Source: Candidatus Omnitrophota bacterium
GTDB lineage: Bacteria > Omnitrophota > Gorgyraeia > Zapsychrales > JANLHA01
Length of the DNA: 32,000 bases
Assembly (NCBI GenBank): GCA_963662715.1
Contig: OY759724.1
Coordinates: forward strand, 2,730,001-2,762,000
Reading direction: 5' to 3'
A program made the translations under genes and the position numbers. This document shows positions 1 to 13,559 of the stretch, piece by piece (the first letter of the stretch is position 1; each line of letters starts with the position of its first letter). The notes under the pieces were generated by a model, which was given only the letters and a program-made list of their open reading frames with translations, made no database searches and had not been told where the DNA came from.

Positions 1-349
1 TTTTTGCAAGCTATTCAAAAGAATGTACGGGAAATCCCCCGGGATATTCCGGCTGAATCCTCCCAATAGAATCTCTTCTCCCAAGGTAAAACAGAGACTG
101 TTTCCGGCCAGATCCTGATCAATTGCTTTTCCTGCAGGGTTTTTTCCTTACTTTAGACCTGTTTTCCTTCACTAAGATTATGAATAATGGCGTTTATTCG
201 AGAGAAATGAGTCAATAGCAAATATTTCCCATAAATGAGCAAATGCGTCCATTGAATAAATTTTAAAAGATGATATCCTTTTTTGGGTTATTAAATAGGA
301 CTTCAGACAATATGAAAAATTCCAAAAGCACATATAAACCAAACGCTGG

Positions 350-398
350 CCCGGACGTCACATGCTCCGTCGTGATGCCGGGTTTTTATTTTGTTTTT
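350..398 (+). terminator. Possible intrinsic terminator or attenuator hairpin plus U-tract in the long non-coding region upstream of the acidic-protein gene
   Basis: cccgg(350-354)/ccggg(378-382) and tcac(358-361)/gtga(372-375) can pair around a 10-nt loop, followed by tttttattttgttttt (383-398). The stem is interrupted and short. No supported gene lies between about 70 and 350. Confidence 0.3.
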
Positions 399-542
399 AA
401 AGCTGAAAGGAGGTGAGTTAAAACCGCTGTATTTTTTTAGGAGAAATTTTTAACGATTAATTAAGAAGTAAATTGAAGGAAAAAGGGTTAATGAAGGACA
501 GCATCGAGTTCTTCGCCCTCTATTGTCAAAGTGAGGAATGAA

Positions 543-2879
543 ATGAAAAAATTATTAATTTGGATTTTAGCAATAGCTTTTGCAGCATATCCGGTGGCCG
601 GTTATGCCGAAAGCATCGCTCTTTCTGATTCAGAAATGGATGAGATTGCAGCGGGTGAATGGGTGGTTCTTGCTGAAGGCGAAACTGTTGAAGATGTTTT
701 TTTCAGCCAGAACGAACTCCAGTCCACTGACGGTTCCCTGAATGAAGTGTCAGGTTTGAGCGTTGTAAACAGTGTTGACAGTGCGGTTGCCGTGCAGGCT
801 AACGTCGGCAATTCCGAAGATTTGGCGGAAGTTGAAGCCAATCAGGCCAACGAAGCCAACGTGCTCAACATGAATCCTTCGGTTGACAACTCAACTTCGA
901 ACACGGTCACCAACATCACTGAGCAGGATCAAGTGAATGCCTGGTCCAAAGAGACATCGACAACGGTCACTTTCTCTCATGAAGATGAAAACAATACCCA
1001 GATTTACGACAATGAGCAGTCATCTTCAGCCAACAGCTCTTCCGAATCCACATCAGCGACTTTAGATGCATCCGCTTCCGGATCTGCCTCATCTCAGGAA
1101 GAGCAGTCTGGTTCAACAACAGACTCAACTCTAAACGAAAATCATACAGCCAACACAGATAACACGGCTTTCCAGTATGACTATTCGGATGACACAACTT
1201 TTGATCTGGATGCTCAAGAGCAAGATTCATCTGCTTCTACGGCTGACACTCAAGAAGAAGAGTCCACATCGGCCAGTTTAGATGTGCAGGCCGATTATTC
1301 TGACAGTGCTGCTGAACAGTCAGAAGAGTCCACATCAGCGAGTTTAGATACACAAGCTGATTATGCTAACAGTTCTGCTGAACAATCAGAAGAGTCCACA
1401 TCAGCCGGTTTAGACGTGCAGGCCGATTATTCTGACAGTGCTGCTGAACAATCAGAAGAATCCACATCAGCTAGCTTGGATACTCAATCCGAATATTCTG
1501 ACAGTTCTGCTTTTGACGCCAACGCCAGTCAATCAGCGCAGGCTGAAAGCAGCTCCCAATCAGAAGACAGCACATCAGCAACTTTGGATGCCAACCTGTC
1601 CGCTTCCGAAAGTGCATCAGAGCAGGCTGCAGCCGAAGACGCGACATCAGCTTCCTTGAACGCTGATGCGCAGTATTCTGACAGCGCAACAACGGATTCC
1701 ACAACTGATTTTTCAGCGACTGAAGGAGAAACAACAGCAAGTTCACAAAGTGTTGACGGAACTTATAATCAGACCACAGACACTTGCGCAGATTGTGACA
1801 CCTCCACAACGACTTTTGAGGGAACAGCTGCCACAAGTGACTATTCTGACAGCAAAGATTACACCGCGGGCACAACAGCCGGTACAACGGAAAACACAGA
1901 TGCTTCTGGTTCGCTTGCCGGGACATATGATGCTTCTTCGGCAGAGTCCAGTTCAGCAGAGTCCAGCAGTGAAGCCTCAGGTGGGTTAAATGCCACTTAT
2001 GATGATTCTTCTTCTGAATCCGCGAGCGAAGCTTCTTCTTCAGATGCTTCAGGATCAGTTGCTGCGTCTAATGACACAACAGCATCAGGTTCTTTGAATG
2101 CCGCTTATGATGATTCAGCTTCTTCATCTTCTTCAGAAGACACAACAGCGTCAGGTTCTTTGAATGCTTCCTACGATGATTCAGCTTCTTCTGCTGCTTC
2201 AGAAGACACGACAGCGTCCAATTCTTTGAACGCCGCCTACGATGATTCAGCTTCTTCATCTTCTTCAGAAGACACAACAGCATCAGGTTCTTTGAATGCT
2301 TCCTATGATGATTCTTCTTCCGCATCTACTTCCGAAGCCGAATCATCTGATTCTTCATCAAGCTTGGTTGTCGGTTACACAGATGCTGATTCAGAATCTG
2401 TTGCTGCTTCTCATGATGTTGCTGCATCCACAGATAATATCAACACCACAGACCATGCTGATGAACACAGCTCATCATCATCAAACAGTTTCGAAGCTGA
2501 AGGCGCTTTATCTACATCTTTTGATCATGAAGAAGAGCAGGCCTCCGAATCAGCAGAAGCCCGCAACAATGATGAATTCAAAGATGAATACGAAAAGACG
2601 GAAGTGTCTTTTGAGACAAAAGATACTGAAGCAACAACTAATGATGCTTCTCAGGTTCTCACCAACATCACTGAAACGAAAAACACAGATCGCAAGAACA
2701 AGAGTGAAAAGAATGTGTTGATCATTTCCGGTTCATCACAGTCCGGAGTCAGCTCGTTGAGCACAGTGAATGCTGTTGGTTCAGCTGTTGCCGTTCAGTC
2801 CAACGTTATTAATGCCACAGGCAGTTTGACTGGTTCTATCAACCAATCAAATATTGCGAATGTGACAAACGGTCTTTAA
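543..2879 (+). CDS. Secreted hyper-acidic Ser/Thr/Asp/Glu-rich repeat protein, candidate major fibre subunit (FapC-like role). That it is a real CDS is far better supported than its function.
   Basis: ORF 531..2879. The ATG at 543 is preceded by GAGGA. Signal peptide MKKLLIWILAIAFAAYPVAGYA. LSDSEMDEIAAG motif directly after the signal peptide. Near-duplicate motifs LSVVNSVDSAVAVQANVGNS (N-terminal) and LSTVNAVGSAVAVQSNVINA (C-terminal). About 15 acidic 22-aa repeat units. A strong terminator follows the stop. Confidence 0.8.
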   Translation: MKKLLIWILAIAFAAYPVAGYAESIALSDSEMDEIAAGEWVVLAEGETVEDVFFSQNELQSTDGSLNEVSGLSVVNSVDSAVAVQANVGNSEDLAEVEANQANEANVLNMNPSVDNSTSNTVTNITEQDQVNAWSKETSTTVTFSHEDENNTQIYDNEQSSSANSSSESTSATLDASASGSASSQEEQSGSTTDSTLNENHTANTDNTAFQYDYSDDTTFDLDAQEQDSSASTADTQEEESTSASLDVQADYSDSAAEQSEESTSASLDTQADYANSSAEQSEESTSAGLDVQADYSDSAAEQSEESTSASLDTQSEYSDSSAFDANASQSAQAESSSQSEDSTSATLDANLSASESASEQAAAEDATSASLNADAQYSDSATTDSTTDFSATEGETTASSQSVDGTYNQTTDTCADCDTSTTTFEGTAATSDYSDSKDYTAGTTAGTTENTDASGSLAGTYDASSAESSSAESSSEASGGLNATYDDSSSESASEASSSDASGSVAASNDTTASGSLNAAYDDSASSSSSEDTTASGSLNASYDDSASSAASEDTTASNSLNAAYDDSASSSSSEDTTASGSLNASYDDSSSASTSEAESSDSSSSLVVGYTDADSESVAASHDVAASTDNINTTDHADEHSSSSSNSFEAEGALSTSFDHEEEQASESAEARNNDEFKDEYEKTEVSFETKDTEATTNDASQVLTNITETKNTDRKNKSEKNVLIISGSSQSGVSSLSTVNAVGSAVAVQSNVINATGSLTGSINQSNIANVTNGL
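1257..1520 (+). repeat. Four in-frame tandem 66-nt units (22 aa, EESTSASLD[VT]QADYSDSAAEQS type) inside the acidic-protein CDS
   Basis: Units start at 1257, 1323, 1389 and 1455 (exact 66-nt spacing). Units 1 and 3 are nearly identical, and units 2 and 4 resemble each other. More degenerate copies flank them (roughly 1040-1700). Confidence 0.9.
2073..2336 (+). repeat. Four in-frame tandem 66-nt units (22 aa, DTTASGSLNA[AS]YDDSASSSSSE type) inside the acidic-protein CDS
   Basis: Units start at 2073, 2139, 2205 and 2271 (exact 66-nt spacing). They alternate in type: 1 resembles 3 and 2 resembles 4. Degenerate copies lie upstream from about 1897. Confidence 0.9.
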
Positions 2880-2890
2880 TAAGTAATAAA

Positions 2891-2928
2891 AGGGTTGGGG
2901 GGAGGCATCTCCCCTCAACCCTGATTTT
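2891..2928 (+). terminator. Strong Rho-independent terminator immediately after the acidic-protein gene
   Basis: agggttggggggag (2891-2904) pairs with ctcccctcaaccct (2909-2922) as a 14-bp GC-rich stem with one G-U wobble and a gcat loop. It is followed by gatttt. Confidence 0.75.
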
Positions 2929-2961
2929 AAATGATGGTTTTTAAAAAGGAGATGGTCTGCG

Positions 2962-3417
2962 ATGTCTAGAAAGATAGGGTTTCTACTATTAAGTGTAGTT
3001 TTTCTGAATATGATTATCAACCCTGTGTTTGCAGATGGAAACGCAGTCGTCCTGTCTGATGAAGAGTTGGATCAAGTATATGCGCAGGGATTTAATTTTA
3101 ATTTTGATGAGTTTCTGGGAAATCTGGACAGCATTCTTTCTTCTCCTGACCTAAAAGTTGATTTAGATTTAGCCAAGGGTGGAACCGTGACTTTTACCGG
3201 TGATTCCGGAGTAGAGCAGCAGATATTTGCTACAGAAACCGGTGATATCAATTATATCAATTTGCAAGATTATGCCCAGCAATTTGCCAATAGTCTGATC
3301 AATGTGAATGCCGCAGGAAGCAATGTCCTGGTCGGGTTAAATTTGACCGTCCTCGTCAATTCGGTTGTGAACGGGGACATCAAAAGTTATAATTTCAATA
3401 ACAACAGTTCCAGGTAA
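2962..3417 (+). CDS. Small secreted protein sharing leader-like and N/V/A-rich motifs with the acidic protein (candidate minor subunit or nucleator)
   Basis: AAGGAG lies upstream of the ATG. Signal peptide MSRKIGFLLLSVVFLNMIINPVFA. LSDEELDQVYAQG follows directly after it. C-terminal ANSLINVNAAGSNVLVGLNLTVLVNS and an N-rich tail. Confidence 0.7.
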   Translation: MSRKIGFLLLSVVFLNMIINPVFADGNAVVLSDEELDQVYAQGFNFNFDEFLGNLDSILSSPDLKVDLDLAKGGTVTFTGDSGVEQQIFATETGDINYINLQDYAQQFANSLINVNAAGSNVLVGLNLTVLVNSVVNGDIKSYNFNNNSSR

Positions 3418-3476
3418 AGAAGCTTTTTATACATAATCATTGCGCCCTCCTTTTCTTTCATTTAATATATATCATT

Positions 3477-4160
3477 ATGAATAATAAAATTTTTATAATT
3501 TTAAGTGTTTTTTACCTTTTTGTTGCTCCCGGCCATGCGGCTAGCATTTCGGTGGGGGGCGTCAGTATAAACAAAAAGGTCAAAAATTTAAAAGAGCTTC
3601 GTCAGGAAAATGTTGTCACGCAAAGCCTTGATTATAGTTGCGGGGCCGCGGGTTTGTCGACCCTTTTGAATTATTATTTGAATGATCCTACCCCTGAAAT
3701 CGTTATCATCGATGCCCTGCTCAAAACCATCCCTTTGCAAAAAGTGCAAGCACGCCAGGGATTCTCTTTATTCGATTTAAAGAAATTCGCGGAATCCAGA
3801 GGATACCAGGTAACCGGGTATAAGATGGACTTCGAATTTTTAAAATCCATAGGCAAACCGCTTCTTGTCCCGATAAAATTCAAGAATTACCGGCATTTTG
3901 TCGTGGTTAAAGGTGTTGTCGGTGACAGGGTTTTTATCGCCGATCCGGCCGTAGGGAATATGACAATGAAAGATGAAAAGTTCAAAGCCATTTGGACCAA
4001 CGGCATCGGCTTTGTGGTTGAGCATCCGGAAGGCTCAAGGAACGAAGATTATGCTTTGCGTATTGAAAATGAAGATGTCCGTATGGCGAATTATCAATCC
4101 TTGAAGCGTCTCACCAGTCCTGCCTGGGTCCGGACAGCAATATTTACAAACGAATGGTGA
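3477..4160 (+). CDS. Periplasmic stand-alone C39-family cysteine peptidase (FapD-like role)
   Basis: Signal peptide MNNKIFIILSVFYLFVAPGHA. C39 signature Q-x5-C (QSLDYSCGAAGLSTLLNYY), His block YRHFVVVKG and FIADPAVG. There is no ABC-transporter domain. Confidence 0.75.
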   Translation: MNNKIFIILSVFYLFVAPGHAASISVGGVSINKKVKNLKELRQENVVTQSLDYSCGAAGLSTLLNYYLNDPTPEIVIIDALLKTIPLQKVQARQGFSLFDLKKFAESRGYQVTGYKMDFEFLKSIGKPLLVPIKFKNYRHFVVVKGVVGDRVFIADPAVGNMTMKDEKFKAIWTNGIGFVVEHPEGSRNEDYALRIENEDVRMANYQSLKRLTSPAWVRTAIFTNEW

Positions 4161-4166
4161 TCTTTT

Positions 4167-5627
4167 ATGCGTTTTAACCGAATATTATCAACAATATTGG
4201 TAGTGCTTTTCGTATGCTTTTTTGGGGTCTTCGTGTCCCGGTCGCGCCTTAGATATCCGGAAATTGATTTGACCGCTATTAAAAGGCAGTTAAGGGAGGA
4301 GATTAAAGACGAATTGCGCGCCGAACTGCTGCTTGAAATGGGAGATGTCATAACCCGGGAAGTTCAAAAAGAGGTTCATCTTTATCTTGCGCAGATACAC
4401 AAGCAAAAGGCTGATACAGAAAAGTATAGCCATTTGCAGCCCTCTGCTTCCTATGATGATGCTCTTGCCCGCAATTCCCTGACCCAGCAAGAGGAAAGAG
4501 AAACGATTCGGGAGGCTATCCAGCGGACGGTACGTGACGTCGTTCAGGAATACAATGCACAGCTTTCTGATGAGGAATTAGCCGCAACCGTAGCCAGCGG
4601 CGGACTTGATCCTGCGGTGACTCTTCCGGGCAGTTTGTCAAAAACCGTACAGGATGACCCTGTCCTGTTAGCGGCGGCCGAGGCATCCGCGGGGAGCCAA
4701 AAGCAGACATCCTCTTCTCAGCCGGTTCCCGTGAATTCAAAAGACGCGACAGCCGGTTCCAATTCCGGTAAAGTTGATTCTATTGAAAGGACATTGGTCC
4801 AAAAGGGAAGCATCCTCTTGCCTAAGGGGAGATTGCAGTTTGAACCCAGCCTGACCTATGCGCATTCCTCTTCCAACCGGCTATACATCGACGGCTTTAG
4901 TATCCTTCCGGTCCTTGTGGTCGGCGATATCTCTACAGAAAAAGTGCAGCGGGACGTTTTCATTAATACCTGGACATTCAAATACGGTTTAAGGCACAAC
5001 CTGCAGACAGAAGTCAGGGTTCCTGTCCGGTTTGAATATGACCGCATTACGAACACCGACAGCACAACGTTTGACCAGACGGATAATAAAGGCGGCCTGG
5101 GCGATATCCAGGTTTCTGTGAGCCGCCAGATCGGGTGGGAACACGGTCTCATCCCGGATTTGGTCGCGAATCTATCGGTGAAGTCCAATACCGGGGATGA
5201 ACCTTACAATACGGATATTGCCTTGGGAACCGGGCACTGGGCTGTCAGCGGGGCTCTGGTTGCGGCCAAGGCCAGCGATCCTGCTGTTATTTTTGGCAGT
5301 TTGAATTATACGTATAATATCCCCCGCAGCGATATCGAAAACTACGGAAAAATAGACCCGGGAGACTCGATAGGTTACAGTTTGGGAACCGCCATCGCGT
5401 TGAGTTATCAAACAGCCATCAATTTTTCATTTGATCATTCTATTACCGATAAAATGGTCAGGAACGGCCAAAAGGTCCCCGGCTCTTTCCTGAATGCCGC
5501 TAATTTCAAGACCGGTTTTAACTGGGCTTTGAATGAACGGGCTTCCGTGGATTGTTCTCTCAGCTTTGGCTTGACTCAGGATTCTCCTGATTTCACATTT
5601 GAACTCCGTTTCCCGTATAATTTCTGA
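4167..5627 (+). CDS. Outer-membrane beta-barrel protein with an N-terminal coiled-coil-like segment and low-complexity linker (FapF-like architecture)
   Basis: Starts 6 nt after the peptidase gene. N-terminal hydrophobic segment. Charged heptad-like stretch IKRQLREEIKDELRAELLLEMGD...QKEVHLYLAQIHKQK. S/Q/P-rich linker. C-terminal half has alternating hydrophobic strands, a GGLGDIQVSV motif and an aromatic terminus FELRFPYNF typical of OMP barrels. Confidence 0.65.
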   Translation: MRFNRILSTILVVLFVCFFGVFVSRSRLRYPEIDLTAIKRQLREEIKDELRAELLLEMGDVITREVQKEVHLYLAQIHKQKADTEKYSHLQPSASYDDALARNSLTQQEERETIREAIQRTVRDVVQEYNAQLSDEELAATVASGGLDPAVTLPGSLSKTVQDDPVLLAAAEASAGSQKQTSSSQPVPVNSKDATAGSNSGKVDSIERTLVQKGSILLPKGRLQFEPSLTYAHSSSNRLYIDGFSILPVLVVGDISTEKVQRDVFINTWTFKYGLRHNLQTEVRVPVRFEYDRITNTDSTTFDQTDNKGGLGDIQVSVSRQIGWEHGLIPDLVANLSVKSNTGDEPYNTDIALGTGHWAVSGALVAAKASDPAVIFGSLNYTYNIPRSDIENYGKIDPGDSIGYSLGTAIALSYQTAINFSFDHSITDKMVRNGQKVPGSFLNAANFKTGFNWALNERASVDCSLSFGLTQDSPDFTFELRFPYNF

Positions 5628-5763
5628 TCCCCTCTTGGGACATCTTCCCCTCTTATAAGATATATTGTCGTTGTGCCAGGAAAGATTATTATGATTGCCA
5701 AAAGACAAAGCCGCATGCTATGATAAAAACTCTTTTGAAATTATTTTATTTTGAAAAGTACTC

Positions 5764-6159
5764 ATGAACAGAAAGTTTTGCGCATTCTCGTTGATTCTTC
5801 TGAGCCTTGGCCTTGTATCGATCGTGAACATTGGTCAAGGGGCGGATTTAACGCGGCCTAAGGGCCAGCAGGAGAAGGAATGCCGTGTCCAGAATTGTCA
5901 CGGGCTCGAAATCCAATGCGGTTTCAGTGAACCCAAAGTGTGTACCGAGATGTATCAGTTGGGTGATTTTTGCCGCGCCTTTGCTGAATGTCGTTTTATA
6001 AAAGGTGAGTGTCAGTTTGTGAACAATGATCTTTTCCAGGGATGCAAAGACTGCGTTTTGGATTGCGAACGCAATAAAGATGAGATCAATCCGTTTATTT
6101 GTGAGGTCAAATGCCGGAAGGAATTTGAGCCGTATATTTATGGAAAACCCCTTAATTGA
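5764..6159 (+). CDS. Small secreted cysteine-rich protein, unknown function
   Basis: Signal peptide MNRKFCAFSLILLSLGLVSIVNIGQGA. 12 Cys in the roughly 100-aa mature part. I recognise no family. Confidence 0.55.
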   Translation: MNRKFCAFSLILLSLGLVSIVNIGQGADLTRPKGQQEKECRVQNCHGLEIQCGFSEPKVCTEMYQLGDFCRAFAECRFIKGECQFVNNDLFQGCKDCVLDCERNKDEINPFICEVKCRKEFEPYIYGKPLN

Positions 6160-6346
6160 ATATCTGTCTTTCGCACAACGCATACTCGTATTAACAGGGG
6201 CCGGTATTTCCACGGAAAGCGGTATCAGTGACTACCGAAGCCTTGGCGGATTATGGGATAGATTTCAGCCTGTCACCTTTCAGGAATTTTTTTCCCCTGT
6301 CAGCTATGAAAAAGAAAAAAATACTCGTCAAAGCCGTCCTTTTTGA
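6140..6346 (+). pseudogene. Truncated Sir2/CobB-type NAD-dependent deacylase: only about 53 N-terminal residues retained
   Basis: The ATG at 6140 gives MENPLIEYLSFAQRILVLTGAGISTESGISDYRSLGGLWDRFQPVTFQEFF, the sirtuin Rossmann N-terminus (GAGIS..SGI.D[FY]R). The frame then runs into unrelated sequence and stops at 6346. It overlaps the 3' end of the Cys-rich gene and the 5' end of the HAD gene. Confidence 0.6.
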
Positions 6347-9989: not shown

Positions 9990-11057
9990 ATGTTGCCTAA
10001 GAATCAGACCGCGCATACGCGTATTCTTATCGTTGATGATCAGAAACTGCATGGATTGTACTTGAAGAAAGTTTTGGCAGAAGAGGGGTTCGAAAATGTC
10101 GAATATTCTAATGATCCCCTTAAAGTCCTTCAGCTTGTCCGTGATTTTCACCCGGAGATTATCGTGCTGGACCTTTTTATGCCGCACCTGGACGGTTTTC
10201 AGATCATGGAGCAGTTAGCGGAATTCCGGAAAGATCATTATTTGCCTGTTTTAGCTTTGTCCTCTGAGAAAAGTTCTGATGTGCGGCTGCGGGCCCTACA
10301 GTCGGGCGCGACGGATTTCCTGAATAAACCCTACGAAAACATGGAAATCATTTTCCGTATCAGAAACATGATCGAAATGCGTACTCTTCATATGGAAGTT
10401 AAAAACCAGAATAAGATCCTGGAAAGTAAAGTGCAGGATAGAACCAAGGAACTGAGAGATACGCAGTTAGACATTATCCGCCGCTTGGCGCAGGCGGCGG
10501 AATTCCGTGATAGTGACACGGGGATGCATATTATCCGTATGAGTCAGTATTGTCAGAAATTCGGTGTCGCCATGGGGATGAGCCTGCCCGAATGCGATTT
10601 GTTGCTGCACGCGAGTCCTCTGCATGACATAGGAAAGATCGGGATCCCCGATGCGATCCTGCTTAAGCCCGGCCGCTTGACGGAAGAGGAATATGAAATA
10701 ATGAAAACGCATACGGTCATTGGAGCAAAACTGCTTGCCGGCAGCAATTCTCCCGTTATGAAAATGGCGCAAATCATTGCGATGACTCATCATGAAAAAT
10801 GGGACGGCTCCGGCTATCCTAAACAGTTGAAAGGGGATGAAATCCCGCCCGAGGGACAGATCGTCAGTATTTGCGATGTTTTTGATGCCTTGACATCCGA
10901 TCGCCCCTACAAACAAGCCTGGACCAGTGATGTTGCCGTTGAAGAAATTGTCCGCATGAAAAGCAAGCATTTTTCTCCGATTATTGTTGATCGCTTCCTG
11001 GAAGTGCTTCCGCTTATTGAAGATATCCGGCAAAAGAACTCGGATGGAACAACTTAA
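9990..11057 (+). CDS. Response regulator with HD-GYP phosphodiesterase output domain (RpfG-like)
   Basis: Receiver: ILIVDDQ...VLDLFMPHLDG...LNKPY. HD-GYP: LHDIGKIGIPDAILLKPGRLTEEEYEIMKTH and HHEKWDGSGYP. Confidence 0.85.
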   Translation: MLPKNQTAHTRILIVDDQKLHGLYLKKVLAEEGFENVEYSNDPLKVLQLVRDFHPEIIVLDLFMPHLDGFQIMEQLAEFRKDHYLPVLALSSEKSSDVRLRALQSGATDFLNKPYENMEIIFRIRNMIEMRTLHMEVKNQNKILESKVQDRTKELRDTQLDIIRRLAQAAEFRDSDTGMHIIRMSQYCQKFGVAMGMSLPECDLLLHASPLHDIGKIGIPDAILLKPGRLTEEEYEIMKTHTVIGAKLLAGSNSPVMKMAQIIAMTHHEKWDGSGYPKQLKGDEIPPEGQIVSICDVFDALTSDRPYKQAWTSDVAVEEIVRMKSKHFSPIIVDRFLEVLPLIEDIRQKNSDGTT

Positions 11058-11273
11058 ATTTATAAGATCTGTGCTTTGTTTTCAGGAAAAGTGATGTTAT
11101 AGTGAGGGATGAGTTTTTCGTATTGGGCCCTGTGAACAGACAAGGGGGACTCTTTAAGACTGTGAATCCTGTTTGCGCAGGGCGGGAAAAGGCCTCGCAG
11201 GAGATGTCCGGCGAGAACTTTTGTCAGGATTATGTGCGTCGAAGAGCCATGTGATTTATAAAACGGAGACAGC

Positions 11274-13559
11274 ATGACCGCAGAAAAAAAAGAATTCTTC
11301 TCCCGTGTCCCGGAACTCGATATGTCTGAAGGCACGGAGATGCTTACGGATTTTTCCCGGGAAGCGCAGCGCCATCTTATTGCCGCCCGTAATGCCCTGC
11401 TTATCCTGGAAACTGTCCCCTCTGATAAAGAGGCCATCGAGGATATTTTTAAAACTTTCCATACCATTAAAGGTCTGGCTGATTTCCTGGAACTGCATGA
11501 CATCTTTTCGCTCACCTCTTCCTCCGAAACATTGTGCGATAAATTCCGGAAAAATTTGCTGCAAGTCGATAATGACATGATTCATCTCATTACGCAATCT
11601 ATTGAAGCTTTGCAGAAGTTGCTGGAGCTGCTGGATGACCAGATCGCCAATGGGGGAGTTCTTAAAGGAGAATATTTAGATGTCAAGGACATTATTCTTG
11701 CGATAGAAGAAACCGTCAGCAGGAGTTCGGCGGTTGCCCGGCCCGTTAAACAGCTTGTAAAAAACATCCCCAAAATCAACTTTGAGCCGGACATGACGAC
11801 ATGTTCGCAATTGAAAAAACAGCTGGACCAAGGGGGAGACGGCGTCCCCTGTGATTCCGAAACGCTCGCGAAGCTCCTGCAGGATTTCGAAGAGACAAGC
11901 CGGGAGTTGAAAGTCGCTCAAAGCAAATTGCATGAACGGCAGAGGGAATTGATAAAAGAAAGAGAGTTGGCCATCAAGCTGACTCAGCAGGCCCAGGAAG
12001 AAGCCAGGACGAAAAGTGAGTATCTTGCCAACATGTCGCATGAAATCAGAACGTTGATCAATGCGATTTTAGGTTTTACGGATCTTCTGAAGGAGAGCGG
12101 ACTTAATGCCAAGCAGATGGAGCATTTGAACACCATTATTGTCAGCGGCAGGATGCTCCTCGAGATTGTTAATGATATCCTGGATTTTTCAAAGGTGGAG
12201 TCAGGCAAACTCAAGCTCGAAAAAATCGCGTTTGATCTTGATTACGTCGTTGAGGAAGTTTTTAAGATTATCCGCACCCGGATGGTGGGGAAATCCATTA
12301 ATTTGTATTTTAATATTGAGGAAGATGTCCCCCGGGGGGTGTTGGGAGACCCCACCCGCCTGAAGCAGATTTTTATTAATCTTATTGATAATGCCATAAA
12401 ATTTACCGATCACGGAGAAATAGGCCTGAATGTCAGTTTGATTGAGCAGGAAACGGGATTCAATGCCAATCCCTCTATTAAATTTGTCGTCAGGGATACC
12501 GGCGTGGGAATCCCTGACGATCGGCAGAGTGCTGTGTTCGATACCTTTACCCAGGCGAATGATTCCACCACCCGTATCTATGGCGGGTCGGGCCTAGGAC
12601 TGGCCCTTTGTAAAACATTTGTTGAGACGATGGGTGGAAACATCTGGCTGGAATCAAAGCTGGGGGAGGGAAGCCGGTTCAGTTTCATCATTACTTTTCA
12701 AGAAAGCCAGGAACCTGCGCCGCAAAAGAACCTTGATGTCCTGAAAGACAATGCCGGGGCCGAAGTGCTGATTGTGGATATGCACGAAACCTCGATACGC
12801 CAATTTATCCCGCAATCCGAAAAGGCCAAGCTGGACGTTATCGCCGTGTGCCATTCCGCCAAACAGGCTACGGAGCTGCTTTTAGTCAGAGAAAAAGAAA
12901 ACCAAAGCCTGCCGGCGGTTATCTTTGTTGATTTGCTGCTTCCGGATAAGCAGGGTTTTATGCTGGCGTACAAGCTTAAACAACAGGAGCATTACAAGAA
13001 TATTAAGGTCGTCGGGGTTTCATCGGATGTGAAAGTCGAAACGTCGGAAGAATTCCATCAGGCGGGTTTTGACGCTTTCCTGCCTAAACCCCTCATCCCC
13101 GAAGAATTTTTTGACCTTCTGCAAAGGGTCCTGGGAGAGAAGACCGACCATGTCCGAGTCCTGTCCGATGAGATGATTCAGAAAATATCCTGTTCCGGGG
13201 TCAGGGTGCTGGTCGCGGAAGACAGTATCCCGAACATGGAACTTTTAAAAATACATTTTGAAACATTGGAATGCACGTGTGATTATGCCTCGAATGGACA
13301 GGAAGCCATTGACTTCTTGCGGCAGAATGATTATGACGTCTGTTTCATGGATTTGCAGATGCCTGTGATGGGGGGGATCGAAGCCGCACGGGTTATCCGT
13401 AATGAACTGAAAAAGGGGCTGCCAATTATTGCTTTGACTGCGGCAGAACTCGAGGACGAAAAGGAACGCTGCCTTCAGGCGGGGATGACGGATTATCTGC
13501 CTAAGCCGTTTGGGGTGGATGAGCTGAAGGAAAAAATTATCCGTAATACAAAAATGTAA
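11274..13559 (+). CDS. Cytoplasmic hybrid histidine kinase: N-terminal HPt, coiled coil, HisKA, HATPase_c, two receiver domains
   Basis: HPt FKTFHTIKGLADFLE. H-box ANMSHEIRTLINAILGF. N/G boxes LIDNAIKFT, DTGVGIP, GGSGLGLALC. REC1 VIFVDLLLPD...FLPKP. REC2 VLVAEDS...FMDLQMPVMGG...YLPKPF. No transmembrane or obvious sensor domain is seen. Confidence 0.85.
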   Translation: MTAEKKEFFSRVPELDMSEGTEMLTDFSREAQRHLIAARNALLILETVPSDKEAIEDIFKTFHTIKGLADFLELHDIFSLTSSSETLCDKFRKNLLQVDNDMIHLITQSIEALQKLLELLDDQIANGGVLKGEYLDVKDIILAIEETVSRSSAVARPVKQLVKNIPKINFEPDMTTCSQLKKQLDQGGDGVPCDSETLAKLLQDFEETSRELKVAQSKLHERQRELIKERELAIKLTQQAQEEARTKSEYLANMSHEIRTLINAILGFTDLLKESGLNAKQMEHLNTIIVSGRMLLEIVNDILDFSKVESGKLKLEKIAFDLDYVVEEVFKIIRTRMVGKSINLYFNIEEDVPRGVLGDPTRLKQIFINLIDNAIKFTDHGEIGLNVSLIEQETGFNANPSIKFVVRDTGVGIPDDRQSAVFDTFTQANDSTTRIYGGSGLGLALCKTFVETMGGNIWLESKLGEGSRFSFIITFQESQEPAPQKNLDVLKDNAGAEVLIVDMHETSIRQFIPQSEKAKLDVIAVCHSAKQATELLLVREKENQSLPAVIFVDLLLPDKQGFMLAYKLKQQEHYKNIKVVGVSSDVKVETSEEFHQAGFDAFLPKPLIPEEFFDLLQRVLGEKTDHVRVLSDEMIQKISCSGVRVLVAEDSIPNMELLKIHFETLECTCDYASNGQEAIDFLRQNDYDVCFMDLQMPVMGGIEAARVIRNELKKGLPIIALTAAELEDEKERCLQAGMTDYLPKPFGVDELKEKIIRNTKM

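What the first reader, a model, noticed from the sequence alone, without database searches (positions are those of the whole stretch)
621..662. Double-glycine-type leader-like motif placed after a Sec signal peptide in both secreted proteins
Seen: right after the predicted signal-peptide cleavage sites, ORF1 has LSDSEMDEIAAG-EW (621-662) and ORF2 has LSDEELDQVYAQG-F (3052-3093). Both fit the class II bacteriocin / peptide-pheromone leader consensus LSxxELxxIxGG, with AG or AQG in place of GG. Established: C39 peptidases cleave after such GG/GA/AG leaders, normally as the cytoplasmic domain of ABC exporters. Here the C39 enzyme has its own signal peptide and no ABC domain, and the substrates are Sec-exported. 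Inference: this is either a periplasmic propeptide-removal step or a targeting tag for the adjacent barrel. That combination of Sec signal, GG-like leader and periplasmic C39 is unusual.
Basis: partly seen in the sequence, partly recalled or inferred. Interest (0 to 1): 0.7.

Follow-up and report, generated by a model that had tools for sequence, protein, structure and literature searches.

The report
Leader tag for periplasmic C39 peptidase
Two secreted proteins, and the outer-membrane channel next to them, carry a short bacteriocin-type "leader" right after their export signal; the same tag sits beside a periplasmic C39 protease and a FapF-type channel in about 75 related loci, so it is probably the recognition sequence of this protease family, which the papers I could search still describe as unknown.

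Summary
Window 543-5627 (+) is a four-gene cassette:
- ORF1: a large acidic repeat protein.
- ORF2: a 151-aa protein.
- ORF3: a signal-peptide-bearing C39 peptidase, related to FilB/FapD.
- ORF4: a FapF-type outer-membrane barrel.

ORF1 and ORF2 each have a Sec signal peptide, then 3-8 residues, then L-x-D-x-x-[LM]-D-x-[VI]-x-A-[GA].

In 81 sources holding a related C39 gene, a strict pattern matched 140 times. Of these, 134 were within 8 kb upstream on the same strand (133 behind a signal-peptide-like stretch), 6 were in the transporter's N-terminal part, and none were elsewhere.

Degenerate copies follow the signal peptides of Pseudomonas FapE and Acinetobacter FilA. Two C39 peptidases carry the motif themselves.

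The conserved positions (-12, -7, -4) are those that LahT150, a solved C39 domain, uses to bind its leader. The most likely reading is a periplasmic C39 recognition and cleavage tag on Sec-exported fibre or matrix proteins. Cleavage itself is inferred, not shown.

The system is a new variant of the known Fap/Fil kind. A periplasmic C39 acting on Sec-exported proteins is already the Fap paradigm. The explicit leader was not described in the papers I could search.

The parts
543..2879 (+). ORF1: a 778-aa secreted, acidic, Ser/Thr/Asp-rich repeat protein. This is the large substrate, probably the bulk fibre or matrix component.
   Evidence: ORF listing. Two arrays of 66-bp tandem repeats at 1256-1511 and 2073-2337. 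No Pfam or NCBIfam family. Orthologues with the same N-terminus occur in L001, L002, L010, L013 and L015.
543..608 (+). ORF1 Sec-type signal peptide, MKKLLIWILAIAFAAYPVAGYA. The cleavage site is inferred.
   Evidence: Read from the sequence: basic n-region, hydrophobic core, G-Y-A before the site. No predictor was run.
609..656 (+). ORF1 leader-like propeptide, ESIALSDSEMDEIAAG. Positions: L-12, E-8, M-7, I-4, A-3, A-2, G-1. The finding's coordinates 621-662 cover its core plus E-W.
   Evidence: The positions correspond to the LahT150 determinants in PMC6363468.
2703..2864 (+). ORF1 C-terminal module (aa 721-774, ...SSLSTVNAVGSAVAVQSNV...). It is shared with the C-terminus of the ORF2 family.
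   Evidence: hhalign of A6 against ORF1: probability 88%, E 3.3e-6, 54 columns.
2891..2922 (+). A 14-bp-stem hairpin followed by a T-rich tail, between ORF1 and ORF2. It may be a partial terminator that sets the ratio of the large protein to the downstream genes.
   Evidence: Consensus scan only. Function not tested.
2962..3417 (+). ORF2: a 151-aa secreted protein made of signal peptide, leader and a conserved C-terminal module (AQQ..SL.NVNA.(G/N)S.V.V.LNL). This is the small substrate.
   Evidence: A profile search found 128 representative clusters, and nearly all full-length members start with a signal peptide plus the motif. AlphaFold2 is confident only for the signal-peptide helix and the leader helix at aa 33-38; the rest has low confidence.
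3034..3090 (+). ORF2 leader-like propeptide, DGNAVVLSDEELDQVYAQG. The finding's second site, 3052-3093, covers its core plus F.
   Evidence: L31, D33 and A41 are at least 90% conserved in the 57-sequence family alignment.
3477..4160 (+). ORF3: a 227-aa standalone C39 cysteine peptidase with its own signal peptide, so probably periplasmic. Catalytic residues: Gln49, Cys55 (nt 3639-3641), His140 (3894-3896), Asp156 (3942-3944).
   Evidence: Pfam Peptidase_C39 3.3e-23. NCBIfam FilB 3e-41 and FapD 4e-32, both far below their cut-offs. Q49, C55, H140 and D156 are invariant in 24 homologues, and the equivalent residues in 114. Closest solved structure: LahT150, 6mpz, E 2.4e-9.
4167..5627 (+). ORF4: a 486-aa FapF-type outer-membrane transporter. 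Layout: N-terminal signal or anchor, predicted coiled coil, linker, barrel (aa 210-486), ending in PDFTFELRFPYNF.
   Evidence: NCBIfam FapF 5e-45 and FilC 3e-19, both below cut-off. PDB FapF 5o65/5o67, E 5e-32 over aa 210-486. A FapF-like gene directly follows the C39 gene in almost all of the 80 related loci.
4563..4604 (+). Internal leader-like motif LSDEELAATVASGG in the periplasmic linker of ORF4. It is either a pseudo-substrate docking site for the C39 or a cleavage site that releases the coiled coil.
   Evidence: Equivalent motifs occur in Omnitrophota FapF-like proteins: L001-L008, L010-L013, L015, L016, L018 and L019. None was seen in the Acidobacteriota or Proteobacteria homologues inspected. 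The peptide gives a weak match to the NCBIfam LxmA_leader model, E 0.0056, below cut-off.

Best explanation
The motif is a conserved 12-16-residue amphipathic leader of the double-glycine type. It becomes the N-terminus of ORF1 and ORF2 once signal peptidase I has removed the Sec signal peptide. In the periplasm the standalone C39 peptidase ORF3 binds it. By analogy with LahT150, residues -12 (Leu), -7 (Leu/Met) and -4 (Val/Ile) would sit in a hydrophobic groove. ORF3 most likely cuts at the small-residue pair that follows: A-G in ORF1, and A-Q or A-Q-G in ORF2.

This cleavage, or the hand-over that goes with it, licenses the largely unfolded substrates to pass through the FapF-type barrel ORF4 to the cell surface. 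There the shared C-terminal module and the repeats would build a fibre or matrix.

The copy of the motif in ORF4's linker either tethers the peptidase to the channel or lets it cut off the coiled coil.

Shown here: the motif, its position, its conservation, its exclusive linkage to C39 plus FapF-like gene pairs, and intact catalytic residues. Inferred: signal-peptide cleavage, periplasmic location, binding, the scissile bond, the coupling to export, and the nature of the product.
For: 1. Linkage. 134 of 140 strict pattern matches lie within 8 kb upstream of a C39 gene on the same strand, 133 of them behind a signal-peptide-like stretch. Six lie in the adjacent FapF-like protein and none elsewhere. 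75 of 81 sources have at least one copy, and 4 of the 6 without one have too little upstream DNA (38-974 bases).

2. Register. In the 134 instances: L-12 in 115, D-10 in 132, L/M at -7 in all (fixed by the pattern), D-6 in 123, V/I at -4 in 132, A-2 in 131; position -1 is G in 83 and A in 41; position +1 is G in 76. The median distance from the first Met is 31 residues. [quoted passage not shown] AlphaFold2 predicts a short helix over the motif in ORF2 (aa 33-38) and in P0125 (aa 31-39).

3. Active enzyme. Gln, Cys, His and Asp are invariant in 24 and in 114 homologues. The closest solved structures are double-glycine proteases.

4. Breadth. The arrangement recurs in records titled Omnitrophota, Acidobacteriota, Gamma-, Alpha- and Deltaproteobacteria/Desulfobacterota, Armatimonadota and Nitrospirae.

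5. Characterised systems. Pseudomonas FapE has a signal peptide followed by IEMKDSELAELRGR|FVMPG. A Nitrospirae FapE-like protein has SLTDPEMAEIRGG|FQMPNG. Acinetobacter FilA has MQSMDDAALSAATGQ|DG. Profile alignment places these in the same register as ORF2's motif. In Pseudomonas, FapD Cys38 is needed for secretion, and FapE is the only Fap protein whose mature N-terminus is missing in mass spectrometry (PMC5557850).

6. The peptidase, not the barrel, is the common partner. The tag is also present on the transporter and on two C39 peptidases, P0125 and P0126. This fits a C39-binding element better than a barrel-targeting tag.
Against: - No cleavage has been demonstrated for any member.
- Position -2 is Ala, not Gly, in 131 of 134 instances.
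- In the ORF2 family the residue after that Ala can be Q, E, K, R or H. A canonical C39 S1 pocket would not be expected to accept these, so the scissile bond may lie one residue further on (A-x-G|), or the site may only be bound.
- Curated leader models do not recognise the ORF1 and ORF2 peptides.
- The FapE and FilA alignments are short and statistically weak: hhalign probability 36% and 2%.
- The AlphaFold2 models give no coordinates here, so docking of the leader into the groove could not be checked.
- FapB and FapC, the main Fap cargo, lack the motif. The tag is therefore not required on every protein that uses a FapF-type channel.
Confidence: 0.6

Rival explanations
1. The motif is a non-cleaved secretion or docking signal. 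The C39 protein acts as a periplasmic receptor or chaperone that holds the unfolded substrate by its leader helix and delivers it to the barrel. Any proteolysis is directed at something else, for example the transporter linker.
For: - The variable, often bulky or charged residue after the conserved Ala in the ORF2 family fits binding better than canonical Gly-Gly cleavage.
- Non-catalytic C39-like domains that bind substrates are known in type 1 secretion (as stated in PMC5557850 and PMC6173800).
- An internal copy in the ORF4 linker looks like a tether.
Against: - The catalytic Gln, Cys, His and Asp are invariant across the family, unlike chaperone-only C39-like domains.
- The FapD active-site Cys is required for secretion (PMC5557850).
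- A small residue pair (A-G, A-A, or A-x-G) is kept at the expected distance from the helix.
Confidence: 0.2
2. The motif is recognised directly by the FapF-type transporter (its coiled coil or its plug) as a targeting tag. The C39 peptidase has an unrelated role.
For: - The tag always co-occurs with the barrel as well as with the peptidase, because the two genes are adjacent in almost all loci.
Against: - The transporter itself carries the tag in Omnitrophota, and two peptidases carry it. That makes little sense for a signal read by the transporter.
- The conserved positions coincide with those that C39 domains read.
- FapB and FapC use FapF without the tag.
Confidence: 0.1
3. The motif is a structural or anti-aggregation N-terminal segment of a fibre-subunit family. 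It resembles a double-glycine leader only by convergence and is not read by the peptidase.
For: - Acidic amphipathic helices are common.
- The mature parts of the substrates are predicted to be disordered or aggregation-prone.
- No curated leader model matches ORF1 or ORF2.
Against: - The motif sits on proteins whose mature parts are otherwise unrelated: the ORF2 family, FapE, FilA, the transporter linker and a peptidase.
- It is never found away from a C39 gene in 2 million residues scanned.
Confidence: 0.07

Closest known systems
Fap (functional amyloid in Pseudomonas) secretion system: FapD periplasmic C39 peptidase plus FapF trimeric outer-membrane channel (PMC5557850, PMC6173800)
   Same: - A Sec-exported, signal-peptide-bearing standalone C39 with intact catalytic residues.
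- An adjacent FapF-type barrel with an N-terminal coiled coil and linker. The ORF4 barrel matches PDB 5o65 at E 5e-32.
- Substrates are Sec-exported and predicted to be largely unfolded.
- FapE carries a degenerate copy of the same leader after its signal peptide.
   Different: - ORF3 and ORF4 score far below the FapD and FapF equivalog cut-offs: 111 against 330 bits, and 154 against 700 bits.
- There are no FapA, FapB or FapC homologues and no FapBC repeats.
- The gene order is substrates, then C39, then barrel, rather than fapABCDEF.
- Here every cargo protein carries the leader, and the transporter linker carries one as well.
Acinetobacter Fil fimbrial locus, filA-filB-filC-filD... (NCBIfam NF050077-NF050080; Fil fimbriae of Acinetobacter sp. 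Tol 5, PMC3498257)
   Same: - The same gene order: subunit, then C39, then FapF-like barrel.
- ORF3's best curated match is FilB.
- FilA has a signal peptide followed by MDDAALSAATGQ in the same register.
   Different: - ORF3 scores 142 bits against a cut-off of 475, and ORF4 scores 70 against 630.
- ORF1 and ORF2 do not match FilA.
- No FilD (FadL-type), FilE or FilF genes follow ORF4.
Double-glycine (class II bacteriocin, competence pheromone, Nif11/NHLP) leader peptides cleaved by the C39 domain of PCAT/AMS ABC exporters, for example LahT150, PCAT1 and ComA (PMC6363468)
   Same: - Leader geometry: hydrophobic residues at -12, -7 and -4, acidic residues between them, a small pair at the end, and a predicted short helix.
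- The peptidase fold family is the same; the closest solved structures are these domains.
   Different: - The leader follows a Sec signal peptide instead of starting the precursor.
- The peptidase is a separate secreted protein, not the cytoplasmic domain of an ABC transporter.
- Position -2 is Ala, not Gly.
- The cargoes are 130-1000-residue surface proteins, not short peptides.
- Export across the outer membrane goes through a FapF-type barrel.

Membership tests
Double-glycine leader peptides (PCAT/AMS substrates) | Hydrophobic residues at -12, -7 and -4, arranged as a short helix before the cleavage site | tested here: met
   ORF1 has L-12, M-7 and I-4. Family-wide: L-12 in 115 of 134, L/M at -7 in 134 of 134 (fixed by the pattern), V/I at -4 in 132 of 134. 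A helix is predicted over the motif. The determinants are taken from PMC6363468.
Double-glycine leader peptides (PCAT/AMS substrates) | Gly at -2, and Gly, Ala or Ser at -1 | tested here: not met
   Position -2 is Ala in 131 of 134 instances. Position -1 is G in 83 and A in 41, otherwise Q, E, H, K or S. ORF1 has A-G and ORF2 has A-Q(-G).
Double-glycine leader peptides (PCAT/AMS substrates) | The leader is the extreme N-terminus of a cytoplasmic precursor, with no Sec signal peptide | tested here: not met
   A signal-peptide-like segment precedes the motif in 133 of 134 upstream instances, with a median of 31 residues from the first Met.
Double-glycine leader peptides (PCAT/AMS substrates) | The cognate C39 domain is fused to an ABC exporter | tested here: not met
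   ORF3 is 227 aa with its own signal peptide and no ABC domain. No ABC transporter gene lies in 1-6300.
Active peptidase C39 (as opposed to a non-catalytic C39-like domain) | Catalytic Cys, His and Asp, plus the conserved Gln | tested here: met
   Q49, C55, H140 and D156 are invariant in A2 (24 sequences), and the equivalent residues in A3 (114 sequences). Pfam PF03412 scores 82 bits against a cut-off of 22. Enzyme activity itself was not tested.
Fap system (Pseudomonas fapABCDEF) | FapD and FapF equivalogs | tested here: not met
   ORF3 against NF058616: 111 bits, cut-off 330. ORF4 against NF058560: 154 bits, cut-off 700. Genuine Pseudomonas proteins score 425 and 770 bits.
Fap system (Pseudomonas fapABCDEF) | FapB/FapC amyloid-repeat subunits and FapA and FapE accessory proteins | tested here: not met
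   ORF1 and ORF2 match no Pfam or NCBIfam Fap models. The ORF2 family aligns with FapE only over the signal peptide and leader.
Fil system (Acinetobacter filA-F) | FilA, FilB and FilC as defined by NCBIfam NF050077-79, followed by FilD | tested here: not met
   ORF3 against FilB: 142 bits, cut-off 475. ORF4 against FilC: 70 bits, cut-off 630. ORF1 and ORF2 do not match FilA. No FadL-type gene lies downstream. The gene order substrate, C39, barrel is shared.
Broader FapD-FapF type pair (co-localised secreted C39 plus FapF-like barrel; noted in further phyla in PMC6173800) | Adjacent, same-strand genes for a signal-peptide-bearing C39 and a FapF-homologous barrel | tested here: met
   ORF3 ends at 4160 and ORF4 starts at 4167. 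ORF4 matches the FapF structures at E 5e-32. The same adjacency holds in almost all related loci.

The most novel reading that the evidence does not exclude
The leader is the general recognition signal of a widespread two-step secretion route. Cargo crosses the inner membrane through Sec and loses its signal peptide. This exposes a double-glycine-type leader, which a periplasmic FapD/FilB-type C39 peptidase reads and removes. That step gates passage through a FapF-type barrel. In some lineages a pseudo-leader in the channel's linker, or on the peptidase itself, tethers or regulates the enzyme. If so, this explains what FapD does in Pseudomonas Fap amyloid export (it acts on FapE) and what FilB does in Acinetobacter Fil fimbriae (it acts on FilA). 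It would also allow cargo of such systems to be predicted from sequence alone across at least seven phyla.
Probability: 0.4. Interest if true: 0.8.

Novelty: new variant of a known kind. Interest (0 to 1): 0.68.

Why it matters
The Fap literature I could read says the substrate and recognition sequence of FapD are unknown and that Fap proteins lack a canonical C39 motif (PMC5557850, 2017; PMC6173800, 2018). I found no later paper that settles this.

This cassette and its roughly 75 relatives show an explicit double-glycine-type leader on every cargo protein. Weaker copies sit on FapE and FilA. That turns the open question into a direct experiment: mutate three hydrophobic positions, or map one N-terminus.

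The motif also gives a sequence rule for finding the cargo of FapD-FapF-type systems in uncultured phyla such as Omnitrophota and Acidobacteriota. These cargo proteins currently have no family annotation.

It also shows that the C39 and leader recognition module has been re-used outside ABC exporters, on the far side of the inner membrane.

Fap amyloid and Fil fimbriae are biofilm factors of P. aeruginosa and A. baumannii. A defined protease and substrate pair would therefore also be a target for inhibitors.

Tried and rejected
- **Close-relative genome scan.** A scan of genome contigs with ORF3 alone found nothing. The alignment-based scan worked.
- **Curated leader models.** No NCBIfam model matched the ORF1, ORF2 or acidobacterial motif peptides even at E <= 10. 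Only the ORF4 peptide gave a sub-threshold LxmA_leader match.
- **Pfam on the ORF2 family.** 45 members gave only weak, sub-threshold matches to DUF6160 (7 members, best E 0.0015). One member each weakly matched the lantibiotic and lactococcin families. The one paper that mentions DUF6160 is unrelated.
- **Solved structures.** A PDB profile search with the ORF2 family found nothing.
- **AlphaFold2 of P0125.** This C39 carries its own leader, and I wanted to see whether the leader docks in cis. The peptidase core is confident and the leader helix has pLDDT about 65-72, but no coordinates are returned, so contacts to the groove and to the catalytic Cys could not be measured.
- **AlphaFold2 of ORF2.** Low confidence outside the signal peptide and leader (pTM 0.26), so I ran no fold search.
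- **A pattern that was too loose.** My first pattern matched 1689 times and was uninformative. I replaced it with the stricter one.
- **Literature.** Searches on FapD/FapE cleavage, FilA/FilB, 'FapF-like' and periplasmic C39 found no description of this leader. A whole-word 'FapD' search returned mostly an unrelated medical acronym.
- **A paper I could not read.** The paper with the Edman sequence of FilA, cited in PMC3498257, is not held.
- **Rejected explanations.** A chance match or a low-complexity artefact; membership of the Fap or Fil equivalog families.
Full report
**What is in the window**

Positions 543-5627 on the + strand hold four tightly spaced genes.

- ORF1 (543-2879; the ORF listing starts it at GTG 531, but ATG 543 behind GAGGAA is the likelier start) is a 778-aa acidic, Ser/Thr/Asp-rich protein. 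It has two arrays of 66-bp tandem repeats.
- ORF2 (2962-3417) is a 151-aa protein.
- ORF3 (3477-4160) is a 227-aa protein with an N-terminal signal-peptide-like segment and a Peptidase_C39 domain (Pfam 3.3e-23).
- ORF4 (4167-5627) is a 486-aa protein. Its C-terminal 277 residues match the solved FapF barrel of Pseudomonas sp. UK4 (PDB 5o65/5o67, E 5e-32), down to the terminal PDFTF.L.FPY.F.

In NCBIfam, ORF3's best hits are FilB (3e-41) and FapD (4e-32), and ORF4's are FapF (5e-45) and FilC (3e-19). All four scores are far below the curated cut-offs. ORF1 and ORF2 match no Pfam or NCBIfam family.

**Check of the observation**

Nucleotides 621-662 encode LSDSEMDEIAAGEW, and 3052-3093 encode LSDEELDQVYAQGF. 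Each lies a few residues after a typical signal peptide...AYPVAGYA|ESIA-LSD... and ...INPVFA|DGNAVV-LSD.... The cleavage sites were read by eye.

It lies in ORF4 between the predicted coiled coil and the barrel.

**Is it more than chance?**

ORF2 has few close homologues, but in all six the block LSD.ELDQ[IV]YA.G is essentially invariant. A profile search of 1.84 billion representative proteins found 128 clusters. Nearly every full-length member begins with a signal peptide followed by the motif.

An alignment of ORF3 homologues was used to scan one genome per species. It returned 573 confirmed relatives, and the best 80 loci were kept. In almost all of these a FapF-like gene directly follows the C39 gene.

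I ran the pattern [LIMV]x[DE]xx[LM][DEGNSAH]x[IVT]x[AV](G|xG) over all six frames of the 80 loci plus the window (2.05 million residues). Results:

- 140 matches in total.
- 134 within 8 kb upstream of the C39 gene on its strand, 133 of them behind a signal-peptide-like hydrophobic stretch.
- 6 in the N-terminal part of the FapF-like protein.
- 0 anywhere else.
- 75 of 81 sources have at least one copy, usually two.
- Four of the six without a copy have only 38-974 bases of DNA upstream of the C39 gene.

The record titles span Omnitrophota, Acidobacteriota, Gamma-, Alpha- and Deltaproteobacteria/Desulfobacterota, Armatimonadota and Nitrospirae.

**Anatomy of the motif**

I anchored the register on the conserved Ala as -2. 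The 134 instances then give:

| Position | Residue | Count (of 134) |
|---|---|---|
| -12 | L | 115 |
| -10 | D | 132 |
| -7 | L or M | all (fixed by the pattern) |
| -6 | D | 123 |
| -4 | V or I | 132 |
| -3 | mostly T, Y or A | T 90, Y 16, A 11 |
| -2 | A | 131 |
| -1 | G / A | 83 / 41 |
| +1 | G | 76 |

The median distance from the first Met is 31 residues.

For the double-glycine protease LahT150, the crystal structure and mutagenesis show the following (PMC6363468):

- Residues -4 to -11 form a two-turn helix.
- Ala-3 is nearly invariant.
- The acidic residues are dispensable.
- V-4T is tolerated.

ORF1 (L-S-D-S-E-M-D-E-I-A-A-G|E-W) fits this register exactly, except for Ala instead of Gly at -2.

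In the ORF2 family the residue after the Ala can be G, Q, E, H, K or R, and a Gly nearly always follows it. The scissile bond could therefore be A-x| or A-x-G|. I cannot decide which.

AlphaFold2 predicts a short helix over the motif in ORF2 (aa 33-38; that ten-residue block has pLDDT 84) and in P0125 (aa 31-39).

**The peptidase**

Gln49, Cys55, His140 and Asp156 of ORF3 are invariant in 24 diverse homologues, and the equivalent residues in 114. Its closest solved relatives are LahT150, PCAT1 and ComA peptidase domains. It therefore looks like an active enzyme rather than a non-catalytic C39-like domain.

**Who else carries the tag**

- In Omnitrophota the linker of the FapF-like transporter regularly contains a copy, for example GLTDEELDRVVVG, VSDEELDKIVAAGG and ISDEELSEYVASGE. 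I saw none in the acidobacterial or proteobacterial transporters I inspected.
- Two longer C39 peptidases, P0125 and P0126, carry RRPLSDEELDMILAGQ after their own signal peptide. Their locus has three tagged upstream proteins and a FapF-like gene.

Because the transporter and the peptidase can both carry the tag, the C39 domain is the most economical common reader.

**Link to characterised systems**

I rebuilt the FapF barrel sequence from the PDB alignment and used it to fetch a genuine Pseudomonas fap operon. Its FapD, FapE and FapF pass the NCBIfam equivalog cut-offs.

- FapB and FapC lack the motif.
- FapE reads MNTYRWLTVLCLAASMPAYA|SSAFKPIE-MKDSELAELRGR-FVMPG.
- A Nitrospirae locus with fapD, a fapE-like gene and fapF has SLTDPEMAEIRGG-FQMPNG, a canonical Gly-Gly. 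The only part of this protein that the FapE model recognises is this N-terminal region.
- Profile alignment of the ORF2 family with the two FapE sequences aligns only the signal peptide and leader, in the same register. The alignment is weak: probability 36%, E 3.8e-4.
- An A. baumannii locus whose products pass the FilA, FilB and FilC cut-offs has FilA = MKMFTKLALVSSLAISANAMA|MQS-MDDAALSAATGQ-DGIN. Its gene order is filA, filB (C39), filC (FapF-like), the same order as in the window.

Published work supports a FapD-FapE relationship (PMC5557850 and PMC6173800):

- FapD is periplasmic.
- Its Cys38 is required for FapC secretion.
- FapE is the only Fap protein whose mature N-terminus was not seen by mass spectrometry.
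- The authors state that Fap proteins lack a canonical C39 sequence.
- They state that the substrate of FapD is undetermined.
- The 2018 review also notes co-localised fapD and fapF homologues in five further phyla.

I found no paper describing the leader. Subscription literature was not searchable, so prior description cannot be excluded.

**What the cargo is**

ORF1 and ORF2 share the N-terminal tag. They also share a C-terminal module of about 55 residues...AQQ..SL.NVNA.(G/N)S.V.V.LNL... in ORF2, and SSLSTVNAVGSAVAVQSNV in ORF1 (hhalign probability 88%, E 3.3e-6). The same two-protein pattern, one large Ser/Thr-rich protein and one small one of about 140 aa, recurs in Acidobacteriota and Marinobacter.

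Outside the signal peptide and leader, AlphaFold2 has low confidence for ORF2. This fits a substrate that stays unfolded until it assembles, but it is weak evidence. I infer surface fibre or matrix proteins by analogy with Fap and Fil. This is not shown.

**Most likely mechanism (confidence 0.6)**

1. Sec export and signal peptidase I expose the leader as the new N-terminus.
2. The periplasmic C39 binds the leader through positions -12, -7 and -4.
3. The C39 cuts at the small pair that follows.
4. The cleavage, or the hand-over that goes with it, licenses passage through the FapF-type barrel.
5. The ORF4 linker copy tethers the enzyme or is itself cut. Rouse et al. speculated the latter for FapF.

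Rivals: a non-cleaved docking signal read by the C39 acting as receptor or chaperone (0.2); a tag read directly by the barrel (0.1); a convergent structural segment (0.07).

**Comparison and novelty**

The locus works like Fap and Fil and belongs to the same broad FapD-FapF-type class. It fails the curated membership tests for both the Fap and the Fil families, and its cargo proteins are unrelated to FapB, FapC and FilA.

It resembles double-glycine leader systems in leader geometry and peptidase fold. It fails three of their defining features:

- Gly at -2.
- A leader with no preceding Sec signal.
- A C39 fused to an ABC exporter.

I class it as a new variant of a known kind. The explicit leader, however, appears to be undescribed. 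It offers a direct handle on an open question.

Noticed in passing
window 4563-4604 (ORF4 aa 133-146): A third leader-like motif, LSDEELAATVASGG, lies inside the FapF-like transporter between the coiled coil and the barrel. Similar copies are common in Omnitrophota homologues. None was seen in the acidobacterial or proteobacterial ones inspected.
   Followed up: partly
P0125/P0126; L081 4789-5868: Two 359-363-aa C39 peptidases carry the leader motif (RRPLSDEELDMILAGQ) after their own signal peptide, plus a long C-terminal extension. This may mean self-processing or zymogen-like control. The locus also has three tagged upstream proteins and a FapF-like gene.
   Followed up: partly
window 2891-2922: A strong 14-bp-stem hairpin followed by a T-rich tail lies in the 82-nt gap between ORF1 and ORF2. 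It may be a partial terminator that sets the ratio of the large protein to the downstream genes.
   Followed up: no
window 2703-2864 and 3241-3405: ORF1 and ORF2 share a C-terminal module of about 55 residues (NVNA(A/V)GS.V.V-type; hhalign probability 88%). It is also conserved in the small proteins of Acidobacteriota and Marinobacter, and could be an assembly or channel-recognition element.
   Followed up: partly
window 1256-1511 and 2073-2337: ORF1 contains two separate arrays of about four 66-bp (22-aa) tandem repeats, 81-83% identical. This is typical of length-variable surface proteins.
   Followed up: no
L031 11623-12900: In the Nitrospirae Fap-like locus a 425-aa ORF that looks like a transposase or integrase (judged by eye, not scanned) sits between the fapE-like gene and fapF. 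The operon may be disrupted.
   Followed up: no
window 5764-6159: A small (131-aa) Cys-rich protein with a signal peptide lies directly downstream of ORF4. It matches no Pfam or NCBIfam family, and whether it belongs to the cassette is unknown.
   Followed up: no
window 9990-13559: A response regulator with what looks like an HD-GYP-type domain and a large hybrid histidine kinase (both judged by eye from the translations, not scanned) lie 4-8 kb downstream. They could be cyclic-di-GMP-type regulators of a surface-matrix locus.
   Followed up: no
L083 (NZ_CP104448.1): Several 3.6-4.1 Mb A. baumannii records in the plasmid collection appear to be chromosomes labelled as plasmids. The fil operon region in this record carries no annotation in that table.
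   Followed up: no
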